A stretch of 64,000 nt of DNA from positions 1 through 64,000 of IMG/VR virus record IMGVR_UViG_3300045988_085724. The stretch is one strand, 5' to 3'. Position 1 is the stretch's first letter. Every line of letters starts with the position of its first letter. This document shows, piece after piece, positions 8,552 through 64,000 of the stretch. The DNA comes from a virus. The position numbers and the translations under genes were made by a program. The notes under the pieces were generated by a model. It worked only from the letters and a program-made list of their open reading frames with translations. It made no database searches and was not told where the DNA came from.

Positions 8552-11500
8552 TTAAAATGGCGATGCGTCAGACGCACTGAGTACTGCATTCGGGTCATAT
8601 CCGCCTCCTCCATCATCTATATATGGATTACCGAATTCATCATACTTAACACCTTCTGTAACAGTATTACTGTACGTGCTTTTCTTTAATGCGTCATAGT
8701 CATAACCAAAAGCTTTCAAGAAGAATGCATCAAGTAAGAATTGTTTTATATAATAACTTGAGTTCTCATCTATACCTTGTGTTGAAAGAGATTTATGTAA
8801 TTGATTCAGTATAATACTACTTACGTACATATCTTTTTGAAAATTTGTATATCCTTTATATGAACTATTCTTTATTTTTTCATCGCTATCGTCATCAAAC
8901 ATTAGTTTCAATAATGCAGTAGGCATTTTACCTACATCCTCAAGTGCTTTATAATACACAGTACCAGACTTAAGTACTGACATCATACCAAATGGAGATT
9001 GTTGTTCAAGAGCACTTGCTGTAGTACGAATGTAACCATTATATATGACATGTCTATATCTATGTTTACTGAAAAAGTTTGTATAATCTTTAAGGTCATG
9101 CGTAATAACTTCTGATAATGAAGAGTCTTCTCTATCTAAATAATCATCATCGTCATCATCTCCACCTTGAAATGCCCATGCTGCCATAAACTGGGCGCAC
9201 GCTACCAGTATACACAACATTGCTAATTCTACAAAATTTTGTCTAATAGCTTTTCGTTCTGGTTTAGACAGATGTCTAAATTCGTTTTTGTATTTTATAC
9301 CGAATGTAACGTAATGTGTAAAATTCCTAATCAATACACCAAGAGCGCGCCATGATGCTTTTGCTATTTCAGGTTCACGAGCTCCTCCTTCTGCAATATT
9401 AACAGATTTAGCATTTTCTAATTGTTGTCTTGTCAGTGGAGCTTTTTTAACTTTATATCTAACTTTAGTTTTTCCGTTTTGTGTATATTCTTCTTTTTCT
9501 ACAGAAATATCTCTATAGTTCACATCATCTCTTCCAGAAAACCATTCTTGGTTACGCTGTACCATCCAGTGACGCATACCTAAGAAAAATTGTCCAGCCA
9601 TACTATTTTTATACATTGCTGCTTCACCTTCGACTCCAAGTCCATTAACCATACCACCTCTTAATTTAACAGTTTTTATTAGAGATTTTTCTAGCTCTGG
9701 TGTAACATACTATTTGTATTTATCTTTTATGACAGCTTTTCCATCTTTAAATTCATATGCGTTCCACAAAGTACGAGTTTCAAATAATCTTTTACGACTA
9801 GCGGCATTTATAGTTCTACCATGTAAAACGAATAAATCTTCTAGTTTGTCTGCAGTATAAAATCCAGCTGGAATTTCATTATCTCCATCATAGAATCTGT
9901 ATGAACTCATTACGGCGTTCAGTAATATAGCATTCATATGGTGATCTACCATTGAGAACGACGCCATTGCTAACTTCTTGGCTATTCTTACGGCTCTTGC
10001 ATCTCCAATGTTTGCAACATTGTTATCAAACTAAGTACCAACTCCAAAACGTCGCATCAATGCAGACTACAAGTTGTTAGCCAAAGGATTTCCAATATTT
10101 GCAAGCATAAGAGGTAATCTTATTAATTCATGATATGATGCGCTTGTTATATCACGCATAGATATATACTGTCCGCTCCATGCATCTCTGAGCAATACAC
10201 GAGAAGCATCTGTTAAGCCATGGAATGCAGAAAGGAAGTTATTAGCCAATACACCTAAAGATGCCATACTACGAACCTAAGCGCTTAATTTTGCAGCTGC
10301 TGCAGATTGTCCAGTAGGAGTTCCTCCGTATAATTTCATATTAAGTAAGTTATCAGCTAAAGCTTCTGTTCTTGGAATTTCATTGAACACACCAGTTCTA
10401 TTCTCTGTTCTAAGAGCTTGACGCAATGACCACAACTCAGCTTCAACTTGTTTTTTATATTTATAGTTTTTAGCCATATGCATATACATCAGTACAGCCG
10501 CAGTAACATCAAACGAATAGCGTTTACGATTCTCAAGAGAACCTACATACCTAAGTGAAATATCTGCCCCAAAGCCTGTTCCATCCGCTGAATACTGGTA
10601 TCCGTCATTTACACGAACATCTTCATCGATAGCTCTATTGCCAGTAAAACTATCTTTAACAGCTTCCCATGCGTCAGCCATATTATAACCTTTTTTTAAT
10701 ACTCTTGACATTTGAGCAATGTTTGATGCTTCATATTTAGGAAGACGATAGTTAAATATAGCATTTTTAGCTCCATAGTCCTATTGTGATTGCTGCATCA
10801 TTTCTATCAATGAATTATATAATTTGTGTAAATTTCTATCTTTTTCAACCTTGCTCCATGCTTCTGAATTATCATAAAACTATTTCATTGGCTATTCGGA
10901 GTTATGATCAGCATGGTTGTATTGATCGTTAAAGAAAAGTGGGTCATGTTTTTCTGCAAAACGTCCAATTGGAACTCTATCGATAATACCACGTACACTA
11001 ATCTGACCATCTTTCCCTCGAGCTAACATAGTACTTGTTTGTGTAGGATATATATTACTAAACATATGCAACGGATGAGTATAACCATCTGCATCAATAT
11101 ATGAAAAGAAATTTATTATTGCATCTCTTATCTATATTGCGCTCATAGATCTAAAATCTATAAGTACACCGTTATCGTCAACAAAATCTCGTATATAACC
11201 ATCGGTAACTGCCTTATCATAATATTTCTTTATCATATAGTCATACCATGTTCTAATATTGAGTTTATTGCGTTCTTCGGCTGTTGTCGCATTATAATAA
11301 TCTCTTACTTCACTGTCTGTAGCAAGTGTTCCATCCTTATGAAATACTCTACCTGCTGGATCTCTGTACACTTGTGGTACATACTGGAAATAATCTTTAA
11401 AATCGCTCTTAGGTTGGTTTGGGTCTTCATATTTACCGTACTCAATAGTCTATTCTACACGTTTACAGTTTTTCCAGAAGCCTAAATCATTTTCTTTTAT

Positions 11501-42843: not shown

Positions 42844-42862
42844 GTCTCTAAATGTAATTGAT

Positions 42863-48233: not shown

Positions 48234-48976
48234 TCATCCTCCTATTCATCTTGTTGGTTATTCTATTGATTAGATTGTCTCTAAGGCTATTTAGAAGCTG
48301 TCTAAGGCTATGAAGCACCTCCGCGCTTATAGTTTATAAATAACTAAACAGCGCCGCTTACAAGCTCATTAAAACACTCGTACGGAAGTTCACAAGCAAC
48401 GCCATCGCCAAGTATAGTAAAGTTTGCCGGTATCTTGATATACCTAATGTCTATAGCTATTATTTTAGTATATTCATCTGTAATTACTTCAAACGTAGTT
48501 CCTTTTCCAGCATTCTTCATAACTAGTAATGGTCTACGAAGTATTTTACCTTTATTATAAGGATCTCGCATTATTTGGTTATATTGCTGTGAATTTATAT
48601 AATCATTGCCAACCCAAACCTAAGTTTGCGAATCTTCTTCGTCATATGGTTTTGCATAAGAACCTTCTATTAAAGAAGTAGAATCAATATACATATTGAA
48701 ATCATCCAACTTAAACAGATTATATTCATCCGGGACACATTCTCCCCAAACAATAAGTGTTTTGAGATAATCATCAATACGATTAGAAGCATTTGAATTA
48801 GGCTAAACGCGATCTTTTGTTATATATAACTCTTTAACGAACTGATTTTGATATTCATTTAAGAATGCATAAATATCTTCAGTATCAATCTTATCAACTG
48901 TTTTAGTTGACGGAAGTATAGTTTGAATTCTACGTTCAAATTCTATCCCCAATTGTCTTGTCTATTCTAATGTCAT
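48230..48976 (-). CDS. Head-completion-like protein, 248 aa, 10 in-frame TAG including a TAG-rich Gln-rich C-terminal tail
   Basis: The ATG at 48976 overlaps the upstream TGA (ATGA). TAG is at codon 5. The last ~36 codons read ...V-TAG-LFINYKRGGAS-TAG-P-TAG-TASK-TAG-P-TAG-RQSNQ-TAG-NNQQDE-TAG-EDE-TGA. Confidence 0.6.
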
Positions 48977-49758
48977 GCCTCTAATGATTTAGTTTGTACT
49001 ACTGTTGCTAATCTAGGATCTTGTACATTTCTACAAGCAAATATTACAGCAAGATTAATAAGCTCTTCACACACAGTATTTGATAATGGGAACTTCTCAG
49101 TGTTTGTTTTCTATTGTGCAAAACTGGTCGGCATCATAATTCCACGTATGTGCAATGAGCTATTAGTTATTTTACCTTTACTACTATCTATAAGTATGTG
49201 TATACACGTACCTTCTTTTGAAGTAGTATTTTCACTATTTTCTTTTGAAGTAGTATTTTCGCGCTATACATACATTATAGGTTCTTTTATCCAAGGTTTA
49301 TTGTGAACAGTTTCCTTAAATTTATCCGCTATTACACTTGTTAATAACTAAACCGTTTCTTCATATTTATTTGTATCTTTTGAGCCTTCCGCTTTGCCGG
49401 TTTCTTTCTGTTTATCTGTATATGTTATCTTACCACCTAATATATAAACAGGCGGTGTAACACCGTTATCATATACATATACAAACTCATTGCTTGCAAT
49501 ACTTGGATCTGTAGTATTTGTAGATTGGGTGAGAGTCCATATATCTATTAATGGAGCTATATCTGACATAGCTTTAGAATCCATATCTAACGCTACTTTA
49601 CGAGGATTATTTCCTGTTACTTTTTGAGCTATTAAAGCATACATTGCTTTATCTAAGATAACTGCAATCTCTTCTTTTGTAAGTGAAGGATATGACGAAG
49701 ATACATCAGCCTTGTCATATTCAATCAAAAAATTTTTGTATATATCATTATACGTCAT
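48973..49758 (-). CDS. Head-tail joining-like protein, 261 aa, 3 in-frame TAG, with an in-frame 27-nt tandem duplication
   Basis: ATG 49758, TGA 48973. The sequence ENTTSKENS is repeated, encoded by the direct repeat at 49214-49260. Confidence 0.55.
49214..49260 (-). repeat. Tandem direct repeat, 27-nt period (20-nt perfect core, two copies)
   Basis: TCTTTTGAAGTAGTATTTTC occurs at 49214-49233 and again at 49241-49260. The period is in frame (9 codons). Confidence 0.85.
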
Positions 49759-49773
49759 ATCTCATTCTAAATA

Positions 49774-50526
49774 TTACTTATTCTTAGTTTCGTTTATGAT
49801 TGCAAGCTTAAGGTCTTGGTTCTTTTTGTTATCCAAATATGCGATTGCATCATTGAGTGAATCGGCAATCATCTCAGTACCATAATAGTACTATGTACGC
49901 TGCTTACGGATAACACCTTTAGCGATAGCTTCCTCAAGTATAAACTGAGTATCCTTAGACTTATTGTTTACCCACAAATCAAAAAATTTCTTAGGCTGCT
50001 TATCTACAAGATTAAATAATGTAGACTCAACAAGCTCATTAGACATACGCTCACCGTTAATACCAAACAGACGCAGACACTTACGCATCTGATCAAGAGT
50101 AAGCTTACCGAACTCGATAATAGCCTCTCTACGCTGCTTGTTAATCTTATTAGCTTCAATAGCTTCAGCCTGACGATTAATCAGAAGATAATCCTTACCT
50201 TCAGTAAATTTGTCAAGTGATGTAGCTACACGCTTATGTCCACTAAGGAATTTAATTGCCAAAGCCTAACTAGGAATTGAATCATCAAGTATAAGTGTGC
50301 GAGCACCTATTTTTACAGCATAATTAATCCAGAAATCGCTAGAACGTGAAAGTCTACCTTTTTCATAACCTAAAGCTTTTTCAAAATATTCTTCATCTTC
50401 TGGCGTAAGACCAGTATATCTCATCCCAGAACGAGTCCAATACGGACTAATATAATCAACGCATCCTTTATATTTAAGAAGACCTGCCCAGGGGTTTTTC
50501 TTTTTAATCTTTAATTCAACTACCAT
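49774..50526 (-). CDS. Hypothetical capsid-module protein, 250 aa, 2 in-frame TAG
   Basis: Track ORFs 50266-50526 and 49891-50262, plus a 39-codon tail, join in one frame across TAG. TAA is at 49774. Confidence 0.6.
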
Positions 50527-50558
50527 AATTTTAAATTAGTATGTTGTAATGTCGTACA

Positions 50559-50576: not shown

Positions 50577-50607
50577 CTCGAACATTATTTATATTTATTG
50601 TTTAATA

Positions 50608-52119
50608 TTAAGCACCAACTGTAGTCATGCCATTATTAGTATGCTCAGCGTCATCTGCATCGCAGTACATAATACCACAAGACAGCGGATTACGGAGCAT
50701 AATACCCTCCTCACCGAGGAAGTGTACCTGATAACCATCACGGCTGTTAGAACGTACAGTATTGATGTTGTTAGCGTATCCAGCAGGAGTTACTGAACCA
50801 GCAGTACACCACTGAACAAATTCACGACCCTTGCGGCAAACCTTAACAATGTTAGCCTGGCCATCACGCTGACCAAGATCAATGAACAAGAATGTGTATG
50901 ACATCAAAGGTTTACCTGACAGAGGATGAAGCTTACGGAACATTTCCATGTTATCAAACATAGCGCAACGCTTTACAGTAAGTTCAATACCATTAGTCAT
51001 CTTATAAGTTGTAAACTGTCCGCCAAGAGTAAGCTCCTGACCAGAACCAGTAATGAAGTGTGTATCAATCATCTGGAAGCTAGCTACCTTATCTTTCATG
51101 ATACGGTCGAATTCACGGATACCCATTTCTCCTGTCAAAGCCATAAATTTACGCTCATTAGTACCAAGCAGATTATAGCACAGATCGAAAAGGAATTCCT
51201 CGAACAACTCACATGTCAGAGTTGTATAGTAACGTATGTTAGCGGGCGAAATCTGCTCGAACAGACCTGCTGAAATAGCTACAGGACGTCCGTTTGAACC
51301 TTTAAGGTTGTATGTACCATCAGCATTACGGTTAGACTTAGAGAACAGAAGAGCCTTCTCTTCACGTTTCTTCCACTCACGAAGAGCCTTCCAGTACTGA
51401 TAATCTGACCACAAATAAGACTTCTTACCAGTCTCAGGATCAGTCAGAGCAATAGCAAGTACTGTAGAATAAGCATCACCAGTAATATCATAAGTAAGAC
51501 GCAGAGTCATAAGATTATTGCGCATCTTAAACGGCGTCTGATAGTTGATGATATCAGCCTCATCACTGTACTCTTCGTAAGCTGAACCTACGCGGTCTAC
51601 CTGACGACCTGGTAGCAGATATATACCAGGAATATAAGAGTTAGCAAAACCCTCAGCTACATAGCACTCGTATACCCAAGCGTTACCATCCTGATAAGGC
51701 ATACCCTTTACGCGTACCTGGAAGTTGATGTCATCGAATGCGAGGATTGCACCAGGACCGTACCATTTCTCTTCGAGAGCGATATAGATAGGAGTACCAT
51801 TAAGACCAGCTGCGGTATTTTCATTTACATCTACACCGTCACACTTAGCCCACATAATATTAACTGCGTGGTCACCATCAATCATCACAGACCACTCATA
51901 CTCACGATTATCAATAATCATAGTCTTGCCGAGACCACCGGTAATCATGTCAATGGCAGTAGATACGCCATCATCCTTTGTACCAAATACAAGTGAAAGC
52001 AGACCTGAAACCTGATGAGGATTTGTCAGCAAAGCGTTAGAAATCATATTCTCGTCTACCAGATCAGAAAAACGCTTACCGCGATAGAGCTGGAGACCAT
52101 TAAGCAAATTGTTATTCAT
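50608..52119 (-). CDS. Major capsid protein (HK97-fold, crAss-like), 503 aa, no TAG
   Basis: Uninterrupted ORF of the size expected for crAss-like MCPs. It lies directly downstream of an acidic scaffold-like gene. Codon usage looks like that of a highly expressed gene. Assignment rests on size and synteny. Confidence 0.7.
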   Translation of the reverse strand: MNNNLLNGLQLYRGKRFSDLVDENMISNALLTNPHQVSGLLSLVFGTKDDGVSTAIDMITGGLGKTMIIDNREYEWSVMIDGDHAVNIMWAKCDGVDVNENTAAGLNGTPIYIALEEKWYGPGAILAFDDINFQVRVKGMPYQDGNAWVYECYVAEGFANSYIPGIYLLPGRQVDRVGSAYEEYSDEADIINYQTPFKMRNNLMTLRLTYDITGDAYSTVLAIALTDPETGKKSYLWSDYQYWKALREWKKREEKALLFSKSNRNADGTYNLKGSNGRPVAISAGLFEQISPANIRYYTTLTCELFEEFLFDLCYNLLGTNERKFMALTGEMGIREFDRIMKDKVASFQMIDTHFITGSGQELTLGGQFTTYKMTNGIELTVKRCAMFDNMEMFRKLHPLSGKPLMSYTFLFIDLGQRDGQANIVKVCRKGREFVQWCTAGSVTPAGYANNINTVRSNSRDGYQVHFLGEEGIMLRNPLSCGIMYCDADDAEHTNNGMTTVGA

Positions 52120-52149
52120 ATAATATATTAATTGATTTTAAATTTATTG

Positions 52150-53328
52150 TCAAAAGAATCTTGACGCAAGATCTACGACTGATTTAGGTTTATCTTCGAC
52201 ATTATAGGCTGTATGATTTTTAGCCTGATGTCTTAACATTTTTCTAAGTTTTTCTGTAGCGGATGACTCTCCGTCACGTTTAGCAGTAGACACGAACGAA
52301 TCTCCCTTCATTGTAATATATGCAGTAGTAAGAAGATTATTGATAAAGTTATCCTTGTTGTTATAATCTCTTTGGAACTTTGATATTCCGTTTTGATCAA
52401 CATTAAAGATATAATCAGCAAGTTTAGCTCTATCTTCTTTTGGTATCTGTACACCTCTAATGCTTGAAAGTGACTTGATTTGATTCATGCAGTCATTATA
52501 GAACTGTTTAGATTGCTCTTCTTGTTGCTGCAAATATGCGGCCTGTTGCTGTTGAGCCATTTCAAGCTCATGCTGTTTAATCTATTTGAGCCTATCGAGA
52601 GCATCAGCAGATTCCTCTTCAAGCATATCGGCGTCTTCGTAACGTGATATTTTGTTTTTTATTTGATCATCTGTATATCCACTATAGCGTAGAAGTTCGC
52701 TTACAACAGCTTTCTGGTTATCTTCATCTTCCATATCCATATTATCGTATGAAATAGACTGCTGTTGTTTACCATAAAAGTCTTCAAACTTACCGCCATT
52801 TTTAACATATTCATCGAGCTACTATATTCGCTCATCTGCGTATTGAGGTACAGAGTTTTGCTGTACAACTTCACGCATGTAATTTGTCAAATCATCTACT
52901 GTTAAAGGACGATCTTCTTCTTTTATATCATCCATGTTCCAACCAAATGATTCGCCAATTGCGTCAAACAAGAGACCTACTTGTTGTGCTTCATGTACAT
53001 CTGCATCAGATGGTTCTTGCACATCTTCAGTATTATCTACTGTAGCATTAGCAGGTTCCTGAACTGGTTCTTCTTTTGGTTTTCCGTCCATTCTATCAAG
53101 GACGTCCTGTGGAATCTCACTATCATCGTCATTAATATTAGACGGATTAGTGTCATCCGCACTATTATCCTCAGCAGGTTTATCTGCTGGTTTATCGTCA
53201 TCCTCAACGACGTTTATAAATGAATCTTGTGTATCCATATTGGTAGTTTCAGGCATGTTACCTTCATTACCATATACACTATTCAATAGATCATCAAACG
53301 GCGTTGGAGTAGTATTCTTTTTTGCCAT
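52150..53328 (-). CDS. Scaffolding-like protein, 392 aa, 2 in-frame TAG
   Basis: Strongly acidic, low-complexity N-terminal half (DDDKPADKPAEDNSADD...) and a Gln-rich, coiled-coil-like C-terminal half. It lies immediately upstream of the MCP. Three track fragments join in one frame. Ends in TGA. Confidence 0.55.
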
Positions 53329-53386
53329 AAATTATTATAATAATTTAATTTGTTATACTTATTTTATTCACTGTTCATTCAGTGTA

Positions 53387-54574
53387 TTAGTGTTTCCATT
53401 TACGAGCGTTTAGTGCAAACTATGCTCTTTTTCTTGTCAAAGGATTCTTAGAATGACTAAGTTCCTCTGTAGTCTTACCTGTACGTTTTTTAGTAGCATT
53501 AAACTTACCACGATTAGCTGGATTTATATATATTCCAGATTTACCGTGATCAAAAGAGCCATCTGGTTTCTGATCGGGATATAACATAGGTTTTAATGGT
53601 ATGTTTATGTATGGATTTAACACTGTACGTATGTCTTGTGACATTGGTACGTGTACAGTACTTATGTTATAATCAGGACTCATTGGTATTTGTATATTAT
53701 TAGACGGTACCTATTGCACAATATTACCGTTCACAACACCTGTAGGCTGAAGGCCTTTCATAAACAAATCCTGCTCATATAATCTACGCTTACGTAGGCC
53801 AGATAATTTTTTATTATTCATACCTACATTTATGGTATCTCTAATGGCAGACAAATCGTCATATTTCATTCCATTTGCAGCCCATTGTCGTATTGCGTTC
53901 AATGTTGGATTAAAACTAGATGGCTTTATATTATAGTAATATGAAGTAAGCGCATCGCGCTGATTTTGTGTCAATGCGTCCCACGCATCATTTCCTATAA
54001 TATTTCCCAATCTTTTGTAGAACGTTCCTACTGCATCACCTCCCCATCTACGATTCTACCCGGCAAAATGCGAACCTTCAGCACTAGCTATATATTTACG
54101 AATAGATCGTGATGGACCGCCTTTTCCAGTATAATATTCAGGCAAGTTTATCTTTACTGGATGGTCTTCTGCATGATCTAAATAATCTCTAGTTCTGTTA
54201 TAATTCCAGTAGTTAGCTAACTAAGACATACTAGGTGTATATTCAGTACCAGCTTCGTTCCAGCTACCACCAACTATTCCATACGGATTATAATCACTTA
54301 CTTTTCCGCTATATATAGACTAATTAGAAAAAGTAGGATGATACATAGTTTTTGCATAATCGTCAAAATGTGCAAATGCAGGAGCATATAACATAGCATT
54401 GGCCATAAAAGGACGTCCTTCATAAAACTCATTATAGTTATACGTAGGATCGTTCAACATCTCTGTATATACTTCATCTGTAGACAAGGGCTTCATTGGA
54501 GCTTGTGTCCATTCTTGTGCTTTCTTATCAGCTATCTAATCTAGCCAAGTATAAAAATCATTTTTCTTTTTCAT
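53387..54574 (-). CDS. Virion protein with a lysozyme-like (GH24-type) domain, 395 aa, 6 in-frame TAG
   Basis: IRKYIASAEGS... is followed by LTQNQRDALTSYYYNIKPSSF...GLRKRRLYEQDLF. This resembles the LTQNQFDALVSxxFN...GLxxRRxxE motifs of lambda/P22-type lysozymes. ATG 54574, TAA 53387. Confidence 0.55.
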
Positions 54575-54605
54575 ATGCAGTTTTTCATATAATTATCTAT
54601 ACGGT

Positions 54606-55886
54606 TTACAACGGCTGCAAACTTTTTGTCCTAGAGTCTACAAACTTTAATAACTAGTCATAATCTTCAGCTTGATCAAATGTAATTCCAGGTTGAACAT
54701 ACCCAGTTCTCTAAGTATTAAAATCTCGCCTACGCCAAAAAGGACCGTTTTTCTCCCAGTAATTAAATTCAGATGCTGGTGCACTTGCATGTTTAGGACT
54801 TCCATTTTCTATCAATACGACTGGAGTTCCTTTATACATAGGAGCTTTTGTATCGTAGCTACCATGCATTCCTTTTGCAAATCTAGAAGCGTTTGTACCA
54901 TCTATAATATAATCGGTATTTGTTGGATCATAAAAATACTCACCTTTTACAAAACCAACAGTGCCTTCATGATTAGTAGAAGGGCGATATCCTAGGTTAA
55001 TCCCCGATTTACTCGTTCTTTCGGGCCTTCCAAACGAATTCCAATCTAAACCTAAGTCTTCTAAAGCCTATTCTAAATTTACTGGGTTCATGTTCGATAA
55101 TTCGTCTCTGGTAAAATATTTCAATAACTGTGGATGATGCTCAATAGCTTTATCTAAAGCACCATGATACCAACCTGTTCTAGATCTTATAATTCCTGTA
55201 TTAACAGCATCATCAATCATCGGAGAAGAACCTACCCTATAAAAATGTCCTGCTTGATTAGGCGGCAGTATAGTTCTATTAAAGATTGGATGTTTTGCTT
55301 GCCACTGTAAAGCAGAGTTTAAAGCGTCTCTTCCTGTATCATTGAGTATTCTATATACCTATGAATGTGGTACTTTAGATAGGACTCGCCCTGCTCCAGA
55401 AATAGGAACTTTCGATGCACCCAAATCAAACAACAAGTTAAGTTGTTTATCTCCGTAACTATCACCAAACCCAGGATTCTTTTCATCCCACATAGGTATT
55501 CCTGTGCGTAATGTACCAATCCAATTACTTGGTGTAAACGTTCTTAACACGGGCATTGCTCCAGGGATTTTACTAACCGGCTCCATTACTTTACCTACAG
55601 TATTTCCAAGTGCATATTGTATACCTTCTGTTAAAGCGTACGGATTAAATGCTGATTGATACGGATATTGTTTCTTGCCTATAACTTCTACATCAGGTGT
55701 AGTAACCTCAAGATTACGTGCATCAATTGCGCTAGGGTCTACATTAAATACACTACCGTCGTCAGTGACCACTGTGTTCTTATCTCCAGTATCATACCTA
55801 GGCAAATCAATACCTCTTATATCCCAGTAACGTTCACCATTCTTCCATCTATCATAGCGTGCTTGAAAATCTTTAATGTTTCTCAT
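54606..55886 (-). CDS. Hypothetical virion protein, 426 aa, 4 in-frame TAG
   Basis: ATG 55886, TAA 54606. The frame was codon-checked over its full length. Confidence 0.6.
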
Positions 55887-57312
55887 ATAATCGTCTGTTT
55901 AAATCTTCAGCTGCTTTGCGCAAAAAATCAGCGTCATATCCTTTTTTTGTTGCAGTTTCAGCACTTATTCCACTGGATCCAATCCCTAACTCTTTTCTTA
56001 ACTGTGCTTCAATTGGAGTCGCTCTATTATAAAACAACATATTACCACCAACAACTTTTTCTAGTGGTGTGTTTGGCACCTATGTAGCTTCTCTACTTAC
56101 AGTAATTGGTAATCCAGTCTATTCAGATTGATACATATAATCTTTATAAGTTGGCTATCCACGTTTCTACAGTAGTTTTCTTAAAGTTTCAGTATAATTT
56201 ATATCCTCATCAGAATATCCAGCTTTTCTAAAGCTCAAAGCTCTCATTATATTAGACTAGCTAGTTTGCTCAAACGTTTCCTATTCTGCATCTCTTGCGG
56301 CCTACATTTCTGCAAATCGCTTTCTTAGTTTTGGAGTACTTAGCGTTTCATATCCTGCACTTTTGGCTGCTCGTAAAAGATCAGTATTGCCACTTACAAT
56401 AGTATAATTGGACAGATTAAACGGGTCATTATTAAAACCTTGTAATATAAATGTGTCGGAAGGCTACGTACTTAAATACGCTTTTGGATCATACATAGCT
56501 GGATTTTTTACAATAACATCACTACCTGACCAATGTGCTTTTGGGTGGTCTCTGACAACTGTATCTGTAGTAGTATTCTACCATGGAAATCTTACCATCC
56601 TACCATTTTCATATGTCGGCATGTTATATATATCTATTCCTTTTTTCTCAGCTCTAAATAATTCTGGCATCCTAGGTTTGGTTGGCAAATGAAGTCTTCT
56701 TCCAAAAGTTCCTAAGACTCTATCAGATAATGAATTTCCGTAATAACCAAGAGATCCTCTAAATGTTGTATAAGGATCAAATAGCCCAGGCATAGAATTT
56801 TGTAAAAACTCAGTACCAGCTCCAATGCCATCTTTTAACATAAAAGGACTAGCTACATCAAAAATAACATTAGCAGTCATATTATTAAAGCCAGTTCCTC
56901 CAACAAGATTATCTCCAAAAGTACCATCACCTGTTAAACTTCTTGCAGCAGCTCCAACATATGTAGACGGACTAATTAATTTACCAATTGCAGAAACTCC
57001 CTCTGCAGCATTCTAATAATTCTGCTATTCGTGTATTCGTCTTTTGACATTCTATAGCGCAATATCATCCTACCTCTTCTAATAACTAGATCTATTGTCT
57101 TGCGATACAACTTCTTGTTTGCTTTTGACAATACCTGTAGGAAAACGCAATCCTTTTTTATATTTATATATAACAGTTTCTCCTTGATTTATTTTTCTAT
57201 TTACAGGTAATATTGGATGAGATATTCGTGTATTGTCTGACGTAGCAGAGTTGTTAGTATTTAATAGCGTAGATAATCTACGATATGATAATCGTTTATT
57301 TGGTTTTGTCAT
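55873..57312 (-). CDS. Hypothetical virion protein, 479 aa, 14 in-frame TAG (about 3% of codons)
   Basis: ATG at 57312 in a TAATTATG junction with the portal stop. TAA is at 55873. All gaps were hand-translated and contain TAG only. Confidence 0.6.
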
Positions 57313-57314
57313 AA

Positions 57315-59801
57315 TTAACGCTCTCCTACCGTTTTATTCCGCAAAGCGGTCTTAGCTTTAAGTTGTTCTCTTTCCATAGCAGCTTTATCTTTTTGCGCTT
57401 GAAGTTGCGATTCATGTTTCATCTTATCTTTCTCAAGCTGTATTTTAGCATCTTCGATCTCTTTCTTCTGTTTAGATTCGTAGCGCTTAGAGTACGCATC
57501 TTCACGTATCTTCATTTGTGCAGTAGCATCTTTAGCTATTTCCATAGGATCTGGTATACCATTCTGATTAGCATCTTTATCTTCAGTTCCGCGATATGCA
57601 GATATCTCAGCTACAGTAATCTTAGTGGCATTGTCTTGATCTATCTTATATCTATCAAGATCCATTTGAGCTTCTTGAAGCATGAGCTCTTGTTGTTTAG
57701 CTTCATTCTGCATCTGTTGAAGCTGTTGCTGTGCTTGTGCTTCAGCTTGTTGCTGTTGTTGTGCTTGTTCTTCTTGACGTTTTTGCATGGCTGCAAGTTT
57801 CTGTTTAATGATATTAAAGTTATCATTAGTGAGTATTTCAGCTGCTTCAAGTAGACTAGCACCATTCTGCATAGCAGGTTGTATAAGCTGTTGGAGCTTC
57901 TGTATGTTCTCAAGATCTTTAGAAGTATCGCTTACGAATACATCCATATCTTCATAGTAGAATTTGTCAGCTATATCGAGAAATGCACGTTCGCCATTGT
58001 CAAATATGTACGATAATTTCTTTTTACCAGTCTATTGCCAAGCACCTTTAGCTGTATTCAAAAGCATATTTAATACATGACGTTTACATTGAGCATGCGC
58101 CCAGAATAAAGGCTCTGTGATATGTGAAGATTGTACAACAGAACGCTCAACATTACCAACAAGTTCTGAAGAACTGATAGCACCTTGTCGTTGTTCTGTA
58201 ATACCAGATATAGTTCCAGCAAGTTGTTCAATCTTATCCATCAACTGAATATATTCAGATATAACATTAGACATTGTAAGATCTAATGCTGTAATCTGAT
58301 TAAATGAAGCAGGCTTTCCGCCTTCACGTCCAGGAACATTCCAGCCTTCTTCATATGGATTTATGAAGTTAACACCAACACTAGAAAGATAATGCATCCA
58401 ACGTTCTGGTGTAATGTTCATAGACTTAGGTATCTGCGTAATATCCATGTTGATAACTTTACCTTTGTCACGAGCGATAGCCAATTCAAGTCTATACCAT
58501 AATACAATATACATATACTGTAATGGTTTAAGAATACTTACAAGTGATCTAGGTTTGCTATTAGTATTACTATATACACAACCACAATATGGCAGCTTTT
58601 GACTATTAGGATTATCAATACTTACATGTTGATACTCAATAGGCTATATTCCAAAATACAAATCATTTCCTGCACGATATCCTTCCCATACTTCTACAAT
58701 CCAGTCTGGTTCCACAGATAATTCGTTGCCTATCTTTTTATACGACTCATCGGCAATTTGTACCTGAGGAGTGCCTGTCTCATCCATGACTGTTACGTAA
58801 AATATCTTTTTAAAAGACTTCCAGCAACAATGCCACACATTTATACAGTATCTACTTTTCTGATCGAATTCTGGATTATCGTATATATGCAATTGTATTC
58901 CTCCGCCTGTATCTACAGGATCGCCTTCTCGCATATCACCCATTGGTTTTCCAGTGAGCATTTCATTGAGTTTATTTAGATCTTTTTCATCTAATTTATT
59001 ATAATACCTATCATACACTTCTGCTACGGGCAGTCTCATCTTACGGCAACACCATGAACCATCTTCAATAAATTCTAGATCGGGACTTTTGTCATATGAA
59101 AAATATAACGGATTAACACGTTCCATATATGGCTCATCATTCTAAACACCTATATAGTATATCTCATTACCGGAGATAAGTGCATCTTTCCATCCTTTTA
59201 TAAATTCATTGTCTAGATTAAGCTTTTCTCTTAAGTAGACTAGCGTATGATACGCTGTATTTTCAACAACATCTTTATACGTACTATCCATATATTTAGC
59301 AATTTGTTCAGGAGGCATTATTTCGCCATTTTGTAATTGCTGTTGAAATTGCTATTGTTGTTCGGGATCCATTTTGGCCATTATTGCGGACATCATATAT
59401 TGGATCAGCATATCTTTTTCCTTATCCATTAAATCAGACGCTGCTTCCTAAGATGTACGCACTACTCTAAAGTTCATGGGTCTCTTTGTTTCCTCACCAA
59501 TGAGTAGGTCAATCTTAGGGCGTATGATATTAAAATCCTAAGGTGTTGCTGGGAATCCATCGTCTACTTTAAATGGGTTTGTTATACGTTTAAAATCTTT
59601 TTCGTCGAAAATACTATTATATAGATTATAATAAGTCTGCAGCTCCCCGAATTGTGTATTCTATCTTCCGCCGGATACAATATTACCTTCTCCGATAATA
59701 TAATTCACACAACTGTGTTGCCAATCCTCATTCTTCTTTGATAGAGGTAACTTCTGTTGCGGAAATGTTGCATTGTATAAATTATCTTCTATTCTAACCA
59801 T
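57315..59801 (-). CDS. Portal protein, 828 aa, 7 in-frame TAG
   Basis: It lies directly downstream of TerL (2-nt gap). Size and motifs are typical of portals (GELQTYYNLYNS, IRPKIDLLIGEE). The C-terminus is a Gln/Glu-rich coiled coil. TAA at 57315. Confidence 0.7.
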
Positions 59802-59803
59802 CG

Positions 59804-61861
59804 TTAAAAACTAAATATCGGTATATCATCTTGTACGCTATTGTCCTAGAACCACTGTGTTCCGAACAATGGCAATTCAAAGAGTTCAACCTATTTATTC
59901 TATTCTTGTGATTTGCTAACCTTCACCTAGTACAACTCTTCTCGATATATCATAACCATGCATAATGCTATAACACGGTCTACGTTCTTAACGCCATCAT
60001 TTTCTATAAGTTCTTCTATTAAAGGTTCGCTATATACTCTCTCTACGTTAGGATGCCCAGGTTCGTATTCTTCAAGTAACCATTCTAGAATAAGACCTTC
60101 TCCATATGCTCTAATCTATTTAGTCATATGACATCCTTTACGTCTTTGTACCTTACTGTCCTTAAAGACCTCAGAAATAATCTTATCGGGCTAATCTGCG
60201 AGTAAGTAATCACAGTGTTTGTTTGTGAAATAAGGATATATACCCTTACGTTCATTCTCAAATAATAATCTAGCATTATAGAACACTAATAGTTTTCTGA
60301 CGTTCTCATAATACTCTTCTGCTGTATCAGGTCTACCTGAATATTCTGCTACTATTACATCATTCCAAGCTTCTCCAGCTTTTACACGTTTGAATATGAA
60401 TACTGATCCTAATGAATTCGTAAATGAATCGTCGTGGTCGTAGGGATCACACCCTCCGATATACAATCCGAATGGCGGATCTTTTATAGGATATTCCCAT
60501 ATTACTATAGATCCATGTGGTTTATCTCCTTTCTTAAGTGGGTATTCAGTAATATCTCCAGACTTCTTTTCTGTAGCTATTATCTAACCGTTACCATCCC
60601 AATTGAGATCTACTATATGTTTCATATTACGTAACTTAGTGTTTGTACGTATACGTGTTAATTGATCCATTAGAAGTTTTCTTGGAAATATATTCTTACC
60701 TAATTCAAGTACAGCCTCTCTTGGCTTAATAGGACGTTCTGATATAAATCTATCTATGGACTATTGTGAAGCTCCTCCATCTTTAATCTTATTACGCTAC
60801 TCTATTAGATTCTCAATAGCTTTCTCACGAAGACTATTTCCATCTTTATCCATATAGATATAATTTCCATCTTTGTCAAAAGATTCTAGATTACTCCATG
60901 AAGGAACAAAGAATCCACAATTAGTTTGCTCAGCATTATCATCCCATATGTTAGGGAATGCCAGTACATTATATGCTTCAGGTTTATAGAACAGTTCCTT
61001 TAGACCAGTAAATGAAGCGCCCTCTGTACCACCTGTACCATAAGCTATCATTAATCCAAAAGCTACACCGTCGTCAGTTTCTACAGACGGCTGTTCTATT
61101 CGCCACGCATCTAACAAGCCAGGGAACTTACCTCCCTCCTCCCATAGTACTAATTTACCACGAGTACCACGAATACGTTCTGGGTCGTTCTTAAGTGTTA
61201 TTCCACTAATAGATGACATATAACCTTGTTCAGTCTATTTACCGAATTCATCAGTTACCTTATAACCAGCTACGCGTTCCATACGAGTAGATACAAGTCT
61301 TTGTTTAGCCCATGCTGTATTCTTGTCTATAAAATCCATGATTTGCCAAGCTTTTGTTAGTAAACCGTCTCCTATTAAGAACTTTTGTTCTGATGCTACA
61401 GCAAAGTTTTTAGATCCAGGTATCAATTCATAATTACGTACTAGCATTGATGCTCCTTTAAAGGAATACCCACGCTATCTGCTCTTAATCACCGACATGT
61501 GTTTACCTTGATCTTCCGCTTCTTCTATAGCGTTGTAGTAATAGTAATCATAGTCCCAAAATCTAGGAAAGTCTAATATACGTTCACGTCTTGTACGTAC
61601 ATTTCCATTTCTATCAGTATACTTAACTTCTTCTAGTTTCATAATAGGACTATAGTTTAGATAGAAATAATGATATCCAGTAATATAATCACCATCTGGC
61701 GCTATATAACCATTTAAACATCTATCTGTTTCTTGCTCCCAATATGTATTATAATCAGTAGTCCCTCTGGGAGCTAAAGTATAGCATTTATGCTTCTTAA
61801 AAAACTCAGCAGCAGGACTGAATTTTATAGAATTATAAATGCGTTTATTGAAATCTACCAT
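59804..61861 (-). CDS. terL: Terminase large subunit, 685 aa, 11 in-frame TAG
   Basis: Four track fragments plus gaps join in one frame. The ATPase-like region includes RGYSFKGASM and WEEGGKF. The RNase-H-like nuclease region includes LYIGGCDPYDHDD. ATG 61861, TAA 59804. Confidence 0.75.
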
Positions 61862-61863
61862 GT

Positions 61864-62157
61864 TTAATTTTTATCTTCGTAAGTATTGAATAATTCTGAA
61901 TCTCCAGTCTACGTATTTACGCCAATAGATGCTTTTAACGGATGAACATGTGTTACACTATCAGGAATCCCTGCAAATATATGCACCATTATGTTGTCGT
62001 CATTTTTAATACCGCCAGTACACCACGTGTGTTCTTTAAGAAATTCATCAATATTACCATTATACTAGTCGTTGATGAAATCTGTCATCATCTATTTTTT
62101 TGAGTAATCGCTACTCGTGAGCTTCTCAAAAGCAATTTTTGTAAAATTCATCATCAT
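61864..62157 (-). CDS. Small hypothetical protein, 97 aa, 3 in-frame TAG
   Basis: Absent from the track. ATGATGATG at 62157 lies 3 nt after the upstream TAA. TAA is at 61864, 2 nt before the TerL ATG. Confidence 0.45.
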
Positions 62158-62160
62158 TCG

Positions 62161-62679
62161 TTATCTAGGATTTTCGTAAAGACCTATTACACCTCCACCT
62201 TTAACTCTACCGGTTTCAGCCTGTTCAGCCTTTGCTTGTTTCATCGCCATATCAAGCGATTTAATTATTCCACTTATATCCTTGAGAAGCTTAGACACTT
62301 TAGTAGCACTATCTATATCTAAATCTGTCTCAGAATAACTATTCATTACACTCATAATCGCCTCTGCTGCATGTTTCGACGAAGTAAGCAAACGAGTCAT
62401 CGGAGTTTCTTGAAACTCGTTAAACCGTTTTGCCAACTCCATCATCTATGCATCAGGTTTAAAATTCTCATCCTTAAAGACATCCTTAGCTACTCTCCAC
62501 GTACGCTCCTTTTCTGGATATGCCTCATATGGAGTATTCCATTTATATCGCCATACTATAAATTCGATTTTCTTCAACGCTTCTTGTTTATCTTTAGCGT
62601 TATTATAGTAATCTTTAAATGGAGGTATAGCTAATTCATCAGTCTTTAGTATTATCTTATTTCCCTATATATCAAACAT
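62161..62679 (-). CDS. Small-terminase candidate or hypothetical protein, 172 aa, 2 in-frame TAG
   Basis: ATG at 62679 (MFDI-TAG-GNK...), with TAG at codon 5. TAA at 62161. It lies upstream of TerL. The functional call is based on position only. Confidence 0.4.
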
Positions 62680-63107
62680 TATGTTAGTTTAGTTAATGCG
62701 CCATGCATAATAAATGTAACTTGGCTATTATTTGCAGATAACTTACGCACAATCGCTGTAATAATGTACATGTTATTATTTGCAGTATTATAATAATTAG
62801 TAGTATAATATAACGTCATACTGTTGTCTGCACTCGTCTCACGCTATAAATTAAATATAAGCGTTGGGAAATCATTTACTCCGACTGGTCCAAATGCATC
62901 TTGTACACCATTCCAAATAATATATTGAGGTGGGTATCCATTTCCAAGAGCATCTCCTCTCTATGTAAATATTAGTTTTTGCTAGTCTTCTGGTATACTG
63001 TACGAGTACGTATCCGTTGTTTTACTACCTAAAGTAATCGATATAGGATGAGCAAATTTTGTCCAGTCTTTTAGGCGAACAAGTCCAGATCTGTCTAATG
63101 TTTCCAT
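62679..63107 (-). CDS. Hypothetical protein, 142 aa, 3 in-frame TAG
   Basis: Absent from the track. ATG 63107. Its TAA (62681-62679) overlaps the next ATG by 1 nt (TAATG). Confidence 0.45.
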
Positions 63108-63113
63108 AGGTTA

Positions 63114-64000
63114 TTATATTAATATTTTAGTTAATTCGTCATTAGAAATAGCTCTAAGCGTAGATTCATCCCAAACAGCTGCACCATCTATTGATAATGT
63201 ACTATGATCTGCACTATATTGGTACGTTAGAGAATCAACAAGTGTACCAACCTCATTAGTTTCAGAATCACATTCTCCAAGGATGCTGTATGTATTTCCT
63301 ATAGCAGTTGATGATAAATTGCTATTAGTCAGCTTGTGCGTATTAATAGCGTCATAGACAGCTTTGCCACTTACTGCATCAGTACCAGTACTTTCTACTT
63401 TATTCACGACTGTATTCCTAGTGGCACCATCTGCTATTCCATTCAACTTAGTCAACAGCGTAGGTGACATCAAACCGTTCGTATTAGTCGTTACAGTAGG
63501 TATTGTAGTAGGACCTACATTTGCGCCCTGATACTCAGTTAATTTCAATTGGAGATCACTAGAGCCATCTGTAGCTGGAACAAATCCTATAGTCTCAATG
63601 CGATGCTTGTTAATCTCACTAGCGATTTTCTTGTCTGCGTCAGTCTTAGTATAATAACCACTTAGATCAAATGAAGCAGTAACCTCGCCAAGTTTCTCCC
63701 ATTTAGTAGCATCATATGTAGCAGTAAGATCACCAGTGTAAATATATTCGGCATAATTATTCTTGTCTCCAGTAGTTCCTACAGCCTTCAAATAAATATG
63801 CTTCTTAATAGTAGCAATAGTACTGGGTAATTCAGTCACAACTTCAAACAATGTAGTATCGAGATTACCAAGTTGACTCAATGGTATAAATCCTTTAGTA
63901 TCAAGTGTAGCAAATCCATTTGGTAAACCAAATGTATTTAATTTGTCAGCAACTGCTCCACTCCAAAGGTTAAGACTCTCAAATTTAGCATCAGAATCAG
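63114..64000 (-). CDS. Tail-fibre-like protein, C-terminal part (5' end lies outside the window), no TAG in the visible part
   Basis: The frame is open to the window edge. It contains GFATLDTKGFIPLSQLGNLDTTLFEVV, the classic fibre motif (LD..GKIP..LP). TAA at 63114. Confidence 0.6.
   Translation of the reverse strand, partial: DSDAKFESLNLWSGAVADKLNTFGLPNGFATLDTKGFIPLSQLGNLDTTLFEVVTELPSTIATIKKHIYLKAVGTTGDKNNYAEYIYTGDLTATYDATKWEKLGEVTASFDLSGYYTKTDADKKIASEINKHRIETIGFVPATDGSSDLQLKLTEYQGANVGPTTIPTVTTNTNGLMSPTLLTKLNGIADGATRNTVVNKVESTGTDAVSGKAVYDAINTHKLTNSNLSSTAIGNTYSILGECDSETNEVGTLVDSLTYQYSADHSTLSIDGAAVWDESTLRAISNDELTKILI

What the first reader, a model, noticed from the sequence alone, without database searches (positions are those of the whole stretch)
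8552..64000. TAG is a sense codon throughout the late (minus-strand) block
The six-frame track shows the minus strand as roughly 80 short ORFs. I inspected every fragment boundary (more than 70) and each one is plus-strand CTA, i.e. TAG. Consecutive fragments stay in one frame for up to 18 kb.

I codon-split or hand-translated the inter-fragment gaps of the large multi-fragment genes and hand-translated the smaller recoded genes end to end. I found no TAA or TGA inside any gene. All 28 genes terminate with TAA or TGA, often in coupled junctions (ATGA, TAATG, TAATTATG).

My hand count is about 225 in-frame TAG codons in 24 of the 28 CDSs, roughly 1.2% of codons. TAG sits inside Gln runs, for example:
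- EQQ-TAG-QFQQQLQ in the portal;
- LMQ-TAG-QL and QAQ-TAG-IR in the 714-aa protein.

TAG-to-Gln recoding is already described for crAss-like phages. The sequence here shows it directly and shows how extensive it is.
Basis: partly seen in the sequence, partly recalled or inferred. Interest (0 to 1): 0.75.

Follow-up and report, generated by a model that had tools for sequence, protein, structure and literature searches.

The report
Amber codon read as glutamine
The late genes of this gut crAss-like phage use the stop codon TAG as a glutamine codon, which is real but already well documented; the one unusual detail is that the phage's own TAG-reading tRNA, just outside the window, is interrupted by a self-splicing-type intron.

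Summary
With only TAA and TGA as stops, the minus strand 8552-63998 tiles into 28 genes at 99% coding density. There are 226-228 in-frame TAGs (1.23% of codons) in 24 of the 28 genes, and no in-frame TAA or TGA.

TAG behaves as a synonymous Gln codon:
- Against a 93%-identical genome, TAG swaps with CAG 47 times and CAA 14 times.
- A substitution-likelihood test over seven relatives favours Gln over Glu by 320 lnL units.
- The 13 plus-strand replication genes contain no TAG.

The window is a strain of crAssphage cr131_1 (Cacepaovirus simiae, Suoliviridae). That genome is already annotated with read-through genes and a tRNA(CUA). Code 15 in crAss-like phages is published and validated by proteomics, so the finding is correct but already known.

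One possibly new point lies 4.9 kb beyond the window's right end. The only tRNA(CUA) found there is split at anticodon position 35/36 by a 190-nt group I-like intron, which hides it from tRNA finders. A related strain carries a different, HNH-encoding intron at the same site. A 172-kb TAG-recoded phage carries a homologous intron in its own tRNA(CUA).

The parts
8552..63998 (-). Late (structural, packaging, lysis, virion RNAP) gene block in which TAG is a sense codon. It has 28 genes and 226-228 in-frame TAG, and it continues about 3.6 kb beyond the window.
63114..63998 (-). g01, C-terminal 294 aa of a 430-aa tail-fibre-like protein. 0 TAG, stop TAA.
62679..63107 (-). g02, 142 aa, 3 TAG.
62161..62679 (-). 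g03, 172 aa, 2 TAG.
61864..62157 (-). g04, 97 aa, 3 TAG. All three of its Gln codons are TAG.
59804..61861 (-). g05, terminase large subunit, 685 aa, 11 TAG.
   Evidence: PHROG 6681, E=4e-142, spanning all TAGs
57315..59801 (-). g06, portal protein, 828 aa, 7 TAG.
   Evidence: PHROG 6547, E=2e-157
55873..57312 (-). g07, 479 aa, 14 TAG. TAG makes up 61% of its Gln codons, the most significant enrichment of any gene here.
54606..55886 (-). g08, 426 aa, 4 TAG.
53387..54574 (-). g09, 395 aa, 6 TAG, with an endolysin-like domain.
   Evidence: PHROG 7, E=2e-10
52150..53328 (-). g10, 392 aa, 3 TAG. The cr131_1 homologue is annotated as a 'RecX-like regulatory protein'.
50608..52119 (-). g11, major capsid protein, 503 aa, 0 TAG. 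All 15 of its Gln codons are CAG.
   Evidence: PHROG 11589, E=2e-123; Pfam Crass_capsid
49774..50526 (-). g12, 250 aa, 2 TAG.
48973..49758 (-). g13, 261 aa, 3 TAG.
48230..48976 (-). g14, 248 aa, 10 TAG (4.0% of codons, the highest density).
47535..48233 (-). g15, 232 aa, 4 TAG, with a weak CrAss_Ring_3_4 match.
46358..47452 (-). g16, 364 aa, 0 TAG.
45161..46282 (-). g17, 373 aa, 4 TAG.
44728..45156 (-). g18, 142 aa, 0 TAG, DUF5675.
44189..44731 (-). g19, holin, 180 aa, 2 TAG.
   Evidence: PHROG 199; Pfam Phage_holin_4_1
43579..44232 (-). g20, 217 aa, 6 TAG. It has an N-terminal membrane anchor and sits next to the holin, so it is a possible spanin.
   Evidence: the spanin role is inferred
42863..43573 (-). 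g21, 236 aa, 4 TAG, CrAss_Ring_2.
42439..42888 (-). g22, 149 aa, 3 TAG.
41550..42458 (-). g23, 302 aa, 1 TAG, CrAss_Ring_1.
36851..41560 (-). g24, muzzle protein, 1,569 aa, 23 TAG.
   Evidence: Pfam crAss_MUZ and crAss_MUZ_C
34704..36848 (-). g25, 714 aa, 13 TAG.
33158..34696 (-). g26, 512 aa, 8 TAG.
15046..33150 (-). g27, a giant 6,034-aa protein with 62 TAG. It contains the virion RNA polymerase module (GSDFDID motif) followed by NADAR, DUF7831 and DUF1848 domains.
   Evidence: PDB 6VR4, E=2.7e-21; Pfam
8552..15043 (-). g28, 2,163 aa, 28 TAG, with an ART-PolyVal domain.
67..8440 (+). Replication/early block of 13 genes and 2,598 codons with no in-frame TAG, so it is readable under either code. 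The only TAG terminator (805-807) is followed in frame by TAA (808-810).
4478..4564 (+). tRNA-Leu(UAA), the only tRNA in the window. It is not a suppressor.

Best explanation
The window is about two thirds of the genome of a crAss-like phage (Crassvirales, Suoliviridae, Oafivirinae) and is a close relative of cr131_1. The phage uses genetic code 15 in its late genes, so UAG is translated as glutamine.

The replication genes on the other strand contain no UAG. They can therefore be translated by the unmodified host machinery as soon as the DNA enters the cell. The 28 late genes include terminase, portal, tail and muzzle proteins, holin and lysis proteins, and the giant virion RNA polymerase protein. 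Together they carry about 226 UAG codons and can be made full length only once an amber suppressor Gln-type tRNA(CUA) is available.

That tRNA is phage-encoded. It lies on the late strand, upstream of the dUTPase gene, 4.9-5.1 kb beyond the window's right end. In this genome it is interrupted between anticodon nucleotides U35 and A36 by a 190-nt group I-like intron, so it must be spliced before it can decode UAG.

What is shown:
- TAG is in-frame sense, and it behaves as a Gln codon.
- The early block is TAG-free.
- tRNA(CUA) exons and the intron are present.

What is inferred:
- charging of the tRNA by GlnRS
- competition with RF1
- actual self-splicing of the intron
- the role of recoding as a gate on late and lysis gene expression, as proposed by Borges et al.
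For: ORF structure and counts.

Homology across TAG positions.

Gln identity:
- Codon exchanges with cr131_1: window TAG aligns with TAG 159, CAG 25, CAA 7 and GAG 6. In reverse, cr131_1 TAG aligns with window CAG 22 and CAA 7.
- The residue most often aligned with TAG is Q in cr131_1, cr130_1, cr124_1 and cr272_1, tied with E in cr1_1.
- Likelihood: Q -891, E -1212, K -1285.
- TAG supplies 25% of the 913 putative Gln codons.

Early block: 0 TAG in 2,598 codons, P about 1e-14 at the late-block rate.

Source genome: the window is 90-96% identical and colinear to NC_055902.1, which is annotated with the same long CDSs and a tRNA with anticodon CTA labelled tRNA-Gln.

This phage's own tRNA:
- L024 is 100% identical to the window's last 11.3 kb. 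It carries tRNA(CUA) exons at 3986-4020 and 4211-4247.
- In-silico splicing gives a 73-nt cloverleaf with anticodon CUA, whereas the unspliced DNA gives no tRNA call.
- The intron matches Rfam RF00028 over the full model, E=2e-4.
- A homologous intron elsewhere shows 10 compensatory pairs of 48 and no broken pairs.

Literature: Yutin 2021 (PMC7886860); Borges 2021 preprint; proteomic validation of TAG read as Q in two crAss-like phages (PMC9523058).
Against: - There is no protein-level evidence for this phage.
- The suppressor tRNA lies outside the window and is split, and the Rfam group I score (26.9 bits) is below the curated threshold of 50.
- Splicing and aminoacylation are untested.
- About 14 kb of the roughly 97-kb genome could not be retrieved, so a second, intact suppressor there is not excluded. 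The homologous region of cr131_1 has none.
- Alignments with the most distant relatives (cr6_1, Azobacteroides phage) do not discriminate Gln from Glu, Asn or Thr.
- No nucleotide-context bias after TAG was found that would indicate tuning for suppression (p=0.17).
Confidence: 0.9

Rival explanations
1. TAG is a sense codon, but it encodes an amino acid other than glutamine, for example Glu, Lys, Tyr, Ser, Leu, Trp or pyrrolysine.
For: - ARAGORN labels every CUA tRNA 'tRNA-Pyl' by default.
- Glu is the second most frequent residue aligned with TAG.
- In the two most distant comparisons Gln is not clearly best.
Against: - TAG exchanges with CAG and CAA 61 times against cr131_1, but with TGG once, with Tyr codons four times and with Glu codons 11 times.
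- The TAG-CAA exchanges need two substitutions and fit only synonymy with Gln.
- Gln beats every other residue by at least 320 lnL units overall.
- The tRNA(CUA) genes share the D-arm, U1, G2, G10 and A73 with the phage's own tRNA-Gln(UUG).
- No Pyl machinery is annotated in cr131_1.
Confidence: 0.02
2. TAG really terminates translation here. On this view the late genes are fragmented or are pseudogenes, or the TAGs are assembly or sequencing artefacts.
For: Under the standard code the block breaks into about 72 short ORFs. Some public assemblies of short contigs called such fragments as genes.
Against: - 18,360 codons contain no in-frame TAA or TGA, while the off-frames hold 3,014 of them.
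- Essential genes (TerL, portal) align full length across the TAGs.
- 159 TAG positions are conserved in a genome that differs at 7% of sites.
- Identical sequence is found in independent assemblies.
- Near-identical TerL proteins (97-98%) come from many separate contigs, 7,999 homologues at E<=1e-20.
Confidence: 0.01
3. TAG is read as Gln, but not by the phage's intron-containing tRNA. On this view that gene is an inactivated relic, and decoding relies on a host suppressor, on near-cognate tRNA-Gln readthrough with RF1 impaired, or on another phage tRNA in the part of the genome not seen.
For: - The tRNA gene is interrupted, and the group I match is below Rfam's threshold.
- About 14 kb of the genome was not examined.
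- Yutin et al. note recoded crAss-like phages without a detectable suppressor and suggest host suppressors.
Against: - The two exons are intact and form a canonical cloverleaf once joined.
- The exons are identical in two strains that carry unrelated introns of 190 and 988 nt at the same site, which implies selection on the exons.
- The splice-site features fit a group I intron: U before the 5' splice site paired with G in a 7-bp P1, and a terminal G.
- A homologous intron in another TAG-recoded phage keeps its structure through 10 compensatory changes.
- Related strains have intact tRNA(CUA) at the same locus.
Confidence: 0.07

Closest known systems
crAssphage cr131_1 (NC_055902.1; Cacepaovirus simiae, Suoliviridae, Oafivirinae)
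   Same: It is 90-96% nucleotide-identical and colinear over the whole window. It has the same late block with in-frame TAG, with 159 shared TAG positions. Its CDSs are annotated read-through, and it has a tRNA with anticodon CTA upstream of the dUTPase gene.
   Different: - Its tRNA(CUA) is a different allele, is intact, and is followed by a homing endonuclease gene. Here the tRNA is split by a 190-nt intron.
- cr131_1 has insertions in the giant gene (gp49), in the MCP (an HNH gene) and in TerL (1.3 kb). All three genes are uninterrupted here.
- The tail-fibre end (window 63152-64000) and the g07/g08 region (window 54575-57433) are divergent.
Genetic code 15 (TAG read as Gln) in crAss-like phages: Yutin et al. 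2021 (PMC7886860), Borges et al. 2021/2022 (10.1101/2021.08.26.457843), Peters et al. 2022 (PMC9523058)
   Same: - TAG reassignment is confined to late, structural and lysis genes.
- Replication genes are compatible with the standard code.
- The suppressor tRNA is phage-encoded.
- A lysis-neighbour gene (g20) and several other genes are TAG-rich.
   Different: Nothing essential differs. This is one more genome of a lineage already counted among recoded crAss-like phages. Those papers do not describe an intron in the suppressor tRNA.
Group I introns in bacterial tRNA anticodon loops (cyanobacterial tRNA-Leu(UAA), Azoarcus tRNA-Ile; recalled from my own knowledge, not tested here)
   Same: - It is a small (190-nt), ORF-less intron inserted inside the anticodon.
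- There is a U before the 5' splice site in a U.G pair of P1.
- The intron ends in G.
- Rfam RF00028 matches over the full model length.
   Different: - The host gene is a phage amber suppressor tRNA(CUA).
- The insertion is between positions 35 and 36.
- The score is below Rfam's gathering threshold.
- Self-splicing has not been shown.
Theta (HDV-like) ribozymes next to tRNAs of recoded gut phages (Kienbeck et al. 2024, PMC10879173)
   Same: It is a catalytic RNA physically coupled to the maturation of suppressor tRNAs in TAG-recoded gut phages.
   Different: Theta ribozymes cleave next to the tRNA. Here an intron sits inside the anticodon loop. That paper does not mention introns.

Membership tests
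Code-15 (TAG=Gln) late-gene recoding of Crassvirales | Conserved phage genes are broken only by in-frame TAG and become full length when TAG is read through. | tested here: met
   (TerL and portal profiles are covered end to end)
Code-15 (TAG=Gln) late-gene recoding of Crassvirales | TAA and TGA remain terminators and never occur in frame. | tested here: met
   0 in 18,360 codons, and all 28 stops are TAA or TGA
Code-15 (TAG=Gln) late-gene recoding of Crassvirales | TAG positions align with Gln in homologues. | tested here: met
   (delta lnL of 320 over the next residue)
Code-15 (TAG=Gln) late-gene recoding of Crassvirales | Recoding is limited to the late module, and early or replication genes are free of TAG. 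| tested here: met
   0 TAG in 13 plus-strand genes and 2,598 codons
Code-15 (TAG=Gln) late-gene recoding of Crassvirales | The phage encodes a suppressor tRNA with anticodon CUA. | tested here: met
   It is not in the window. It is present 4.9 kb beyond the right end in an identical contig, but split by an intron. It is intact in relatives.
Code-15 (TAG=Gln) late-gene recoding of Crassvirales | Gln is found at TAG positions in the proteins. | not testable with these tools
   This needs proteomics. It has been shown for other crAss-like phages in PMC9523058.
Crassvirales / Suoliviridae | crAss-type TerL, portal, MCP, ring and muzzle proteins and a virion RNAP, in the conserved order. | tested here: met
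   plus 93% nucleotide identity to Cacepaovirus simiae
Group I intron (Rfam RF00028) | The covariance-model score reaches the curated gathering threshold. | tested here: not met
   26.9 bits against a threshold of 50, with E=2e-4 over the full model 1-253 in a 1.6-kb search
Group I intron (Rfam RF00028) | The last exon base is U, paired with G in P1, and the intron ends in G. | tested here: met
   Read from the sequence: exon GGGCUCU pairs with intron GGAGCUC, and the intron ends ...GGAAG
Group I intron (Rfam RF00028) | Precise removal restores a functional host gene. | tested here: met
   The joined exons give a 73-nt tRNA(CUA) cloverleaf
Group I intron (Rfam RF00028) | The secondary structure is conserved and supported by covariation. 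| tested here: inconclusive
   Only two homologues were available. 10 of 48 pairs are compensatory and none is broken.
Group I intron (Rfam RF00028) | Guanosine-dependent self-splicing. | not testable with these tools
   This needs an in vitro transcription and splicing assay.

The most novel reading that the evidence does not exclude
In this phage the only amber suppressor tRNA found is interrupted inside its anticodon (between U35 and A36) by a self-splicing group I intron. The switch of the infected cell to code 15, and with it all late protein synthesis, would then depend on an RNA splicing step.

Introns of at least two unrelated kinds target this same site in close strains. A homologous intron splits the tRNA(CUA) of an unrelated 172-kb TAG-recoded phage.

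Such split genes are invisible to ARAGORN. They could therefore account for some of the recoded phages reported to lack a suppressor tRNA.
Probability: 0.5. Interest if true: 0.6.

Novelty: already known. Interest (0 to 1): 0.25.

Why it matters
For the finding as stated, the main consequence is for annotation. Gene callers that use the standard code shred this 55-kb block into about 70 fragments. They miss a 6,034-aa virion RNA polymerase protein, the terminase, the portal and the lysis genes. The biology (code 15 in late genes of crAss-like phages, possibly acting as a timer for lysis) is already published.

The split suppressor tRNA would matter more if it is confirmed. It adds a ribozyme-dependent step to the code switch. 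It also shows that selfish introns home into the anticodon loop of suppressor tRNAs. And it gives a concrete reason why surveys fail to find suppressors in some recoded phages.

Tried and rejected
Searches for the source contig and the tRNA allele that found nothing:
- Exact-pattern scans with the window's last 49 nt in IMG/VR and JGI metagenomes.
- Scans for the tRNA exon 1 allele in IMG/VR and JGI metagenomes.
- A scan for the intron core in GTDB genomes.

Walking out of the window:
- Standard-code ORF fragments led only to contigs shorter than 1 kb.
I got round this through exact cluster look-ups.
- Look-ups of window 67-804 and 7976-8437 were not on record.
- The look-up of window 839-1402 hit a contig that ends near the window's left end, so the left side could not be extended.

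Negative or uninformative tests:
- Rfam found no known family in the 988-nt HNH intron of strain L022.
- The top 120 TerL database homologues all carry Q at the TAG positions. I rejected this as evidence, because those proteins were themselves translated with TAG=Q and the argument would be circular.
- The nucleotide after TAG shows no significant bias relative to CAG and CAA (p=0.17).
- The MFE fold of the tRNA precursor is not unusually stable (z=-1.5).
- I considered that the 18-kb ORF might be several genes joined by chance. I rejected this because cr130_1 has a 17.4-kb homologue, and because the split in cr131_1 coincides with a 912-bp insertion that is absent here.
Full report
OBSERVATION

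The window has 34.6% G+C. GC skew changes sign near position 8,000, which fits a strand switch there.

Under the standard code, minus-strand ORFs of at least 100 codons total 12,864 aa, and the longest is 509 aa. With TAG read as sense, the total rises to 19,951 aa and the longest ORF to 6,038 codons. Reading TGA or TAA as sense has no comparable effect.

ORFs delimited only by TAA and TGA tile 8552-63998 without gaps as 28 genes, at 99.3% coding density. With first-ATG starts there are 228 in-frame TAG in 18,479 codons. With the starts used in public gene calls there are 226 in 18,360 codons. Both give 1.23%, and 24 of the 28 genes contain TAG.

There is no in-frame TAA or TGA, whereas the two other frames of the same genes hold 1,760 TAA and 1,254 TGA. 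Terminators are TAA in 22 genes and TGA in 6.

WHAT THE GENES ARE

| Gene | Identification | Source |
|---|---|---|
| g05 | Terminase large subunit (E=4e-142) | PHROG, |
| g06 | Portal (E=2e-157) | PHROG, |
| g11 | Major capsid protein (E=2e-123) | PHROG, |
| g19 | Holin | PHROG, |
| g09 | Endolysin-like domain | PHROG, |
| g23, g21, g15 | CrAss ring proteins (g15 weak) | Pfam on identical public contig, |
| g24 | Muzzle protein | Pfam, |
| g28 | ART-PolyVal domain | Pfam, |

In each PHROG case the profile is covered across all the TAG positions.

The 6,034-aa g27 contains a module homologous to the virion RNA polymerase gp66 of Cellulophaga phage phi14:2 (PDB 6VR4, E=2.7e-21). The GSDFDID catalytic motif is aligned. 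NADAR, DUF7831 and DUF1848 domains follow it.

WHERE THE WINDOW COMES FROM

The window is colinear with crAssphage cr131_1 at 90-96% nucleotide identity (NC_055902.1; Cacepaovirus simiae, Suoliviridae, Oafivirinae; rhesus macaque faeces). Stretches of it are 100% identical to human-gut ENA contigs.

The public gene calls on those contigs have exactly the lengths I obtain with TAG as sense. TerL proteins 97-98% identical to this one are found on many contigs, so the phage is common.

WHICH AMINO ACID

Codon-by-codon comparison with cr131_1 gave these pairings:

| Aligned codon in the other genome | Window TAG vs cr131_1 | cr131_1 TAG vs window |
|---|---|---|
| TAG | 159 | 159 |
| CAG | 25 | 22 |
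| CAA | 7 | 7 |
| GAG | 6 | 2 |
| GAA | 1 | 2 |
| Tyr codons (TAT/TAC) | 2 | 2 |
| TGG | 0 | 1 |

TAG to TGG is a transition just as TAG to CAG is, yet it is seen once against 47 times. The 14 TAG-CAA pairs need two changes and make sense only if all three codons are synonymous.

Gln is the residue most often aligned with TAG in cr131_1, cr130_1, cr124_1 and cr272_1, and it ties with Glu in cr1_1. I also used each pairwise alignment's own substitution frequencies as a model. On that test Gln is the maximum-likelihood identity in five of seven comparisons and overall, with lnL -891 against -1212 for Glu and -1285 for Lys. The two most distant relatives are uninformative.

TAG supplies 228 of the 913 putative Gln codons in the block, as many as CAG.

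THE OTHER STRAND

The 13 plus-strand genes (67-8440) include a DnaB-type helicase, an AAA_24/RecA-like ATPase and a homologue of the cr131_1 primase, among others. They contain no in-frame TAG in 2,598 codons, which has P of about 1e-14 at the late-block rate.

Only one of these genes ends in TAG (805-807), and TAA follows immediately in frame. This block can therefore be read correctly with or without suppression. That matches the pattern published for crAss-like phages (PMC7886860; bioRxiv 10.1101/2021.08.26.457843).

THE DECODER

The window has a single tRNA, tRNA-Leu(UAA). In cr131_1 a tRNA with anticodon CUA, annotated tRNA-Gln, lies upstream of the dUTPase gene at the head of the late strand. 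The same is true in cr124_1, cr272_1 and cr6_1.

To see this region in the window's own genome I walked outward through exact protein look-ups. Locus L024 is 100% identical to window 52679-64000 and extends 9,107 nt further.

ARAGORN finds no CUA tRNA in L024, but two tRNA halves are visible:
- exon 1 at L024 3986-4020, ending ...GGGCUCU
- exon 2 at L024 4211-4247, starting AACCCCGA...

These lie 4.9-5.1 kb beyond window position 64000, on the minus strand, and they are separated by 190 nt.

Joining the halves gives a 73-nt cloverleaf with the anticodon loop CUCUAAC, so the anticodon is CUA. The unspliced DNA gives no tRNA call.

The insert has these group I features:
- It matches the Rfam group I intron model over its full length, at 26.9 bits and E=2e-4. 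This is below the gathering score of 50.
- The exon ends in U, which pairs with G in a 7-bp P1 (GGGCUCU with GGAGCUC).
- The insert ends in G.

The tRNA shares U1, G2, G10, A73 and the D-arm with the phage's own tRNA-Gln(UUG).

The first TAG-containing gene starts 1.3 kb downstream of the tRNA, after two TAG-free genes, one of which is the dUTPase.

No other CUA tRNA is present in the roughly 83 kb of this genome that I could examine. About 14 kb remains unseen.

VARIATION AT THE tRNA LOCUS

- A 96%-identical strain (L022/L023) has the same two exons, but they are separated by an unrelated 988-nt insert that encodes an HNH endonuclease.
- The most widespread strain type (L026/L027) has an intact tRNA(CUA) of another allele.
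- cr131_1 also has an intact tRNA(CUA).
- A 172-kb IMG/VR phage contig (L036) is locally TAG-recoded as well. It has a different tRNA(CUA) split at the same point (CUCU|...|AAA) by an intron about 80% identical to the 190-nt one.
- Between these two introns, 10 of 48 predicted pairs changed on both sides and none is broken.

I found no paper describing introns in phage suppressor tRNAs. Both Yutin et al. and Borges et al. remark that some recoded phages lack detectable suppressors.

MECHANISM

Best supported sequence of events:
1. Host ribosomes translate the TAG-free early genes.
2. The late-strand transcript yields the tRNA(CUA) precursor.
3. The intron is removed.
4. The tRNA is charged with Gln and competes with RF1.
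5. The TAG-bearing late genes are then made full length.

The steps shown here are the sense status and Gln identity of TAG, the TAG-free early block, and the presence and architecture of the split tRNA. Splicing, charging and any timing or regulatory role are inferred.

Two observations fit the suggestion of Borges et al. that recoding gates late and lysis functions:
- TAG is enriched in g07, g14, g04 and TerL, and is high (not significantly) in the gene next to the holin (g20).
- TAG is absent from the major capsid protein, both here and in all five recoded relatives.

The second point also suggests that suppression is costly for the most abundant protein. These remain correlations.

VERDICT

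The observation and the interpretation are both correct. The phenomenon, the lineage and even the nearest genome are already described and annotated, so the finding is ordinary for a specialist. I score interest at 0.25 and novelty as already known.

The intron-split suppressor tRNA lies outside the window and is supported only in silico. It is the one element I could not find in the literature.

Noticed in passing
L024 3986-4247 (4.9-5.1 kb beyond window position 64000, minus strand of the window): The phage's tRNA(CUA) is split between U35 and A36 by a 190-nt group I-like intron (Rfam RF00028, full-length match, E=2e-4, below the gathering score). ARAGORN detects the tRNA only after the exons are joined in silico.
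   Followed up: yes
L022 505-1564 (also L023): A 96%-identical strain has identical tRNA(CUA) exons, but a non-homologous 988-nt insert at the same site. The insert encodes a 300-aa TAG-free HNH endonuclease. No Rfam family matches it.
   Followed up: partly
L036 9330-9660, minus strand (IMGVR_UViG_3300013902_000001, 172 kb): Another TAG-recoded phage has a different tRNA(CUA) split at the same anticodon position. Its intron is about 80% identical to the 190-nt one, with 10 compensatory pair changes between the two.
   Followed up: partly
window 15046-33150: This is a single 6,034-aa ORF that holds the virion RNAP module plus NADAR, DUF7831 and DUF1848 domains. In cr131_1 the same gene is annotated as two CDSs, separated by a 912-bp insertion that carries gp49 and is absent here. 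Conversely, the window has about 960 bp extra, in frame, at 15697-16658.
   Followed up: partly
window 50608-52119 and 59804-61861: The MCP and TerL genes are uninterrupted here. cr131_1 has an 869-bp HNH-gene insertion in its MCP gene and a 1.3-kb insertion in its TerL gene, so intron or intein content differs between strains.
   Followed up: partly
window 50608-52119 (g11) and 46358-47452 (g16): The major capsid protein has no TAG and encodes all 15 of its Gln residues with CAG. MCP is TAG-free in all five TAG-recoded relatives examined, and g16 is TAG-free in four of the five.
   Followed up: partly
window 805-810: The only TAG used as a terminator in the window is followed directly, in frame, by TAA. 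This tandem stop would still terminate once suppression is switched on.
   Followed up: no
window 6362-7017: This 655-bp insertion relative to cr131_1 holds an ORF (6422-6976) with a NUMOD4 homing-endonuclease-type domain, lying between replication genes.
   Followed up: no
L024 3297-3379 (= L038 7321-7403): A tRNA-like gene next to tRNA-Val(UAC) has a 17-nt anticodon loop. ARAGORN calls it Val(AAC), or Ile(AAU) with a 10-nt intron. The Rfam tRNA score is 36.5 bits.
   Followed up: no
L038 16067-16173 and 18472-18541: Two RAGATH-1 hammerhead ribozymes score above Rfam's gathering threshold. Each lies 110-140 nt upstream of a phage tRNA: tRNA-Met(CAU) and tRNA-Gln(UUG).
   Followed up: no
L026 3472-3544: In the common strain type, a second tRNA-like gene lies directly after the intact tRNA(CUA). 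ARAGORN reports it with an undetermined two-base anticodon.
   Followed up: no
L028 3626-4432 (also L030): Some strains carry a reverse transcriptase (RVT_1) gene among the genes upstream of TerL, which suggests a diversity-generating retroelement. It is absent from the window.
   Followed up: no
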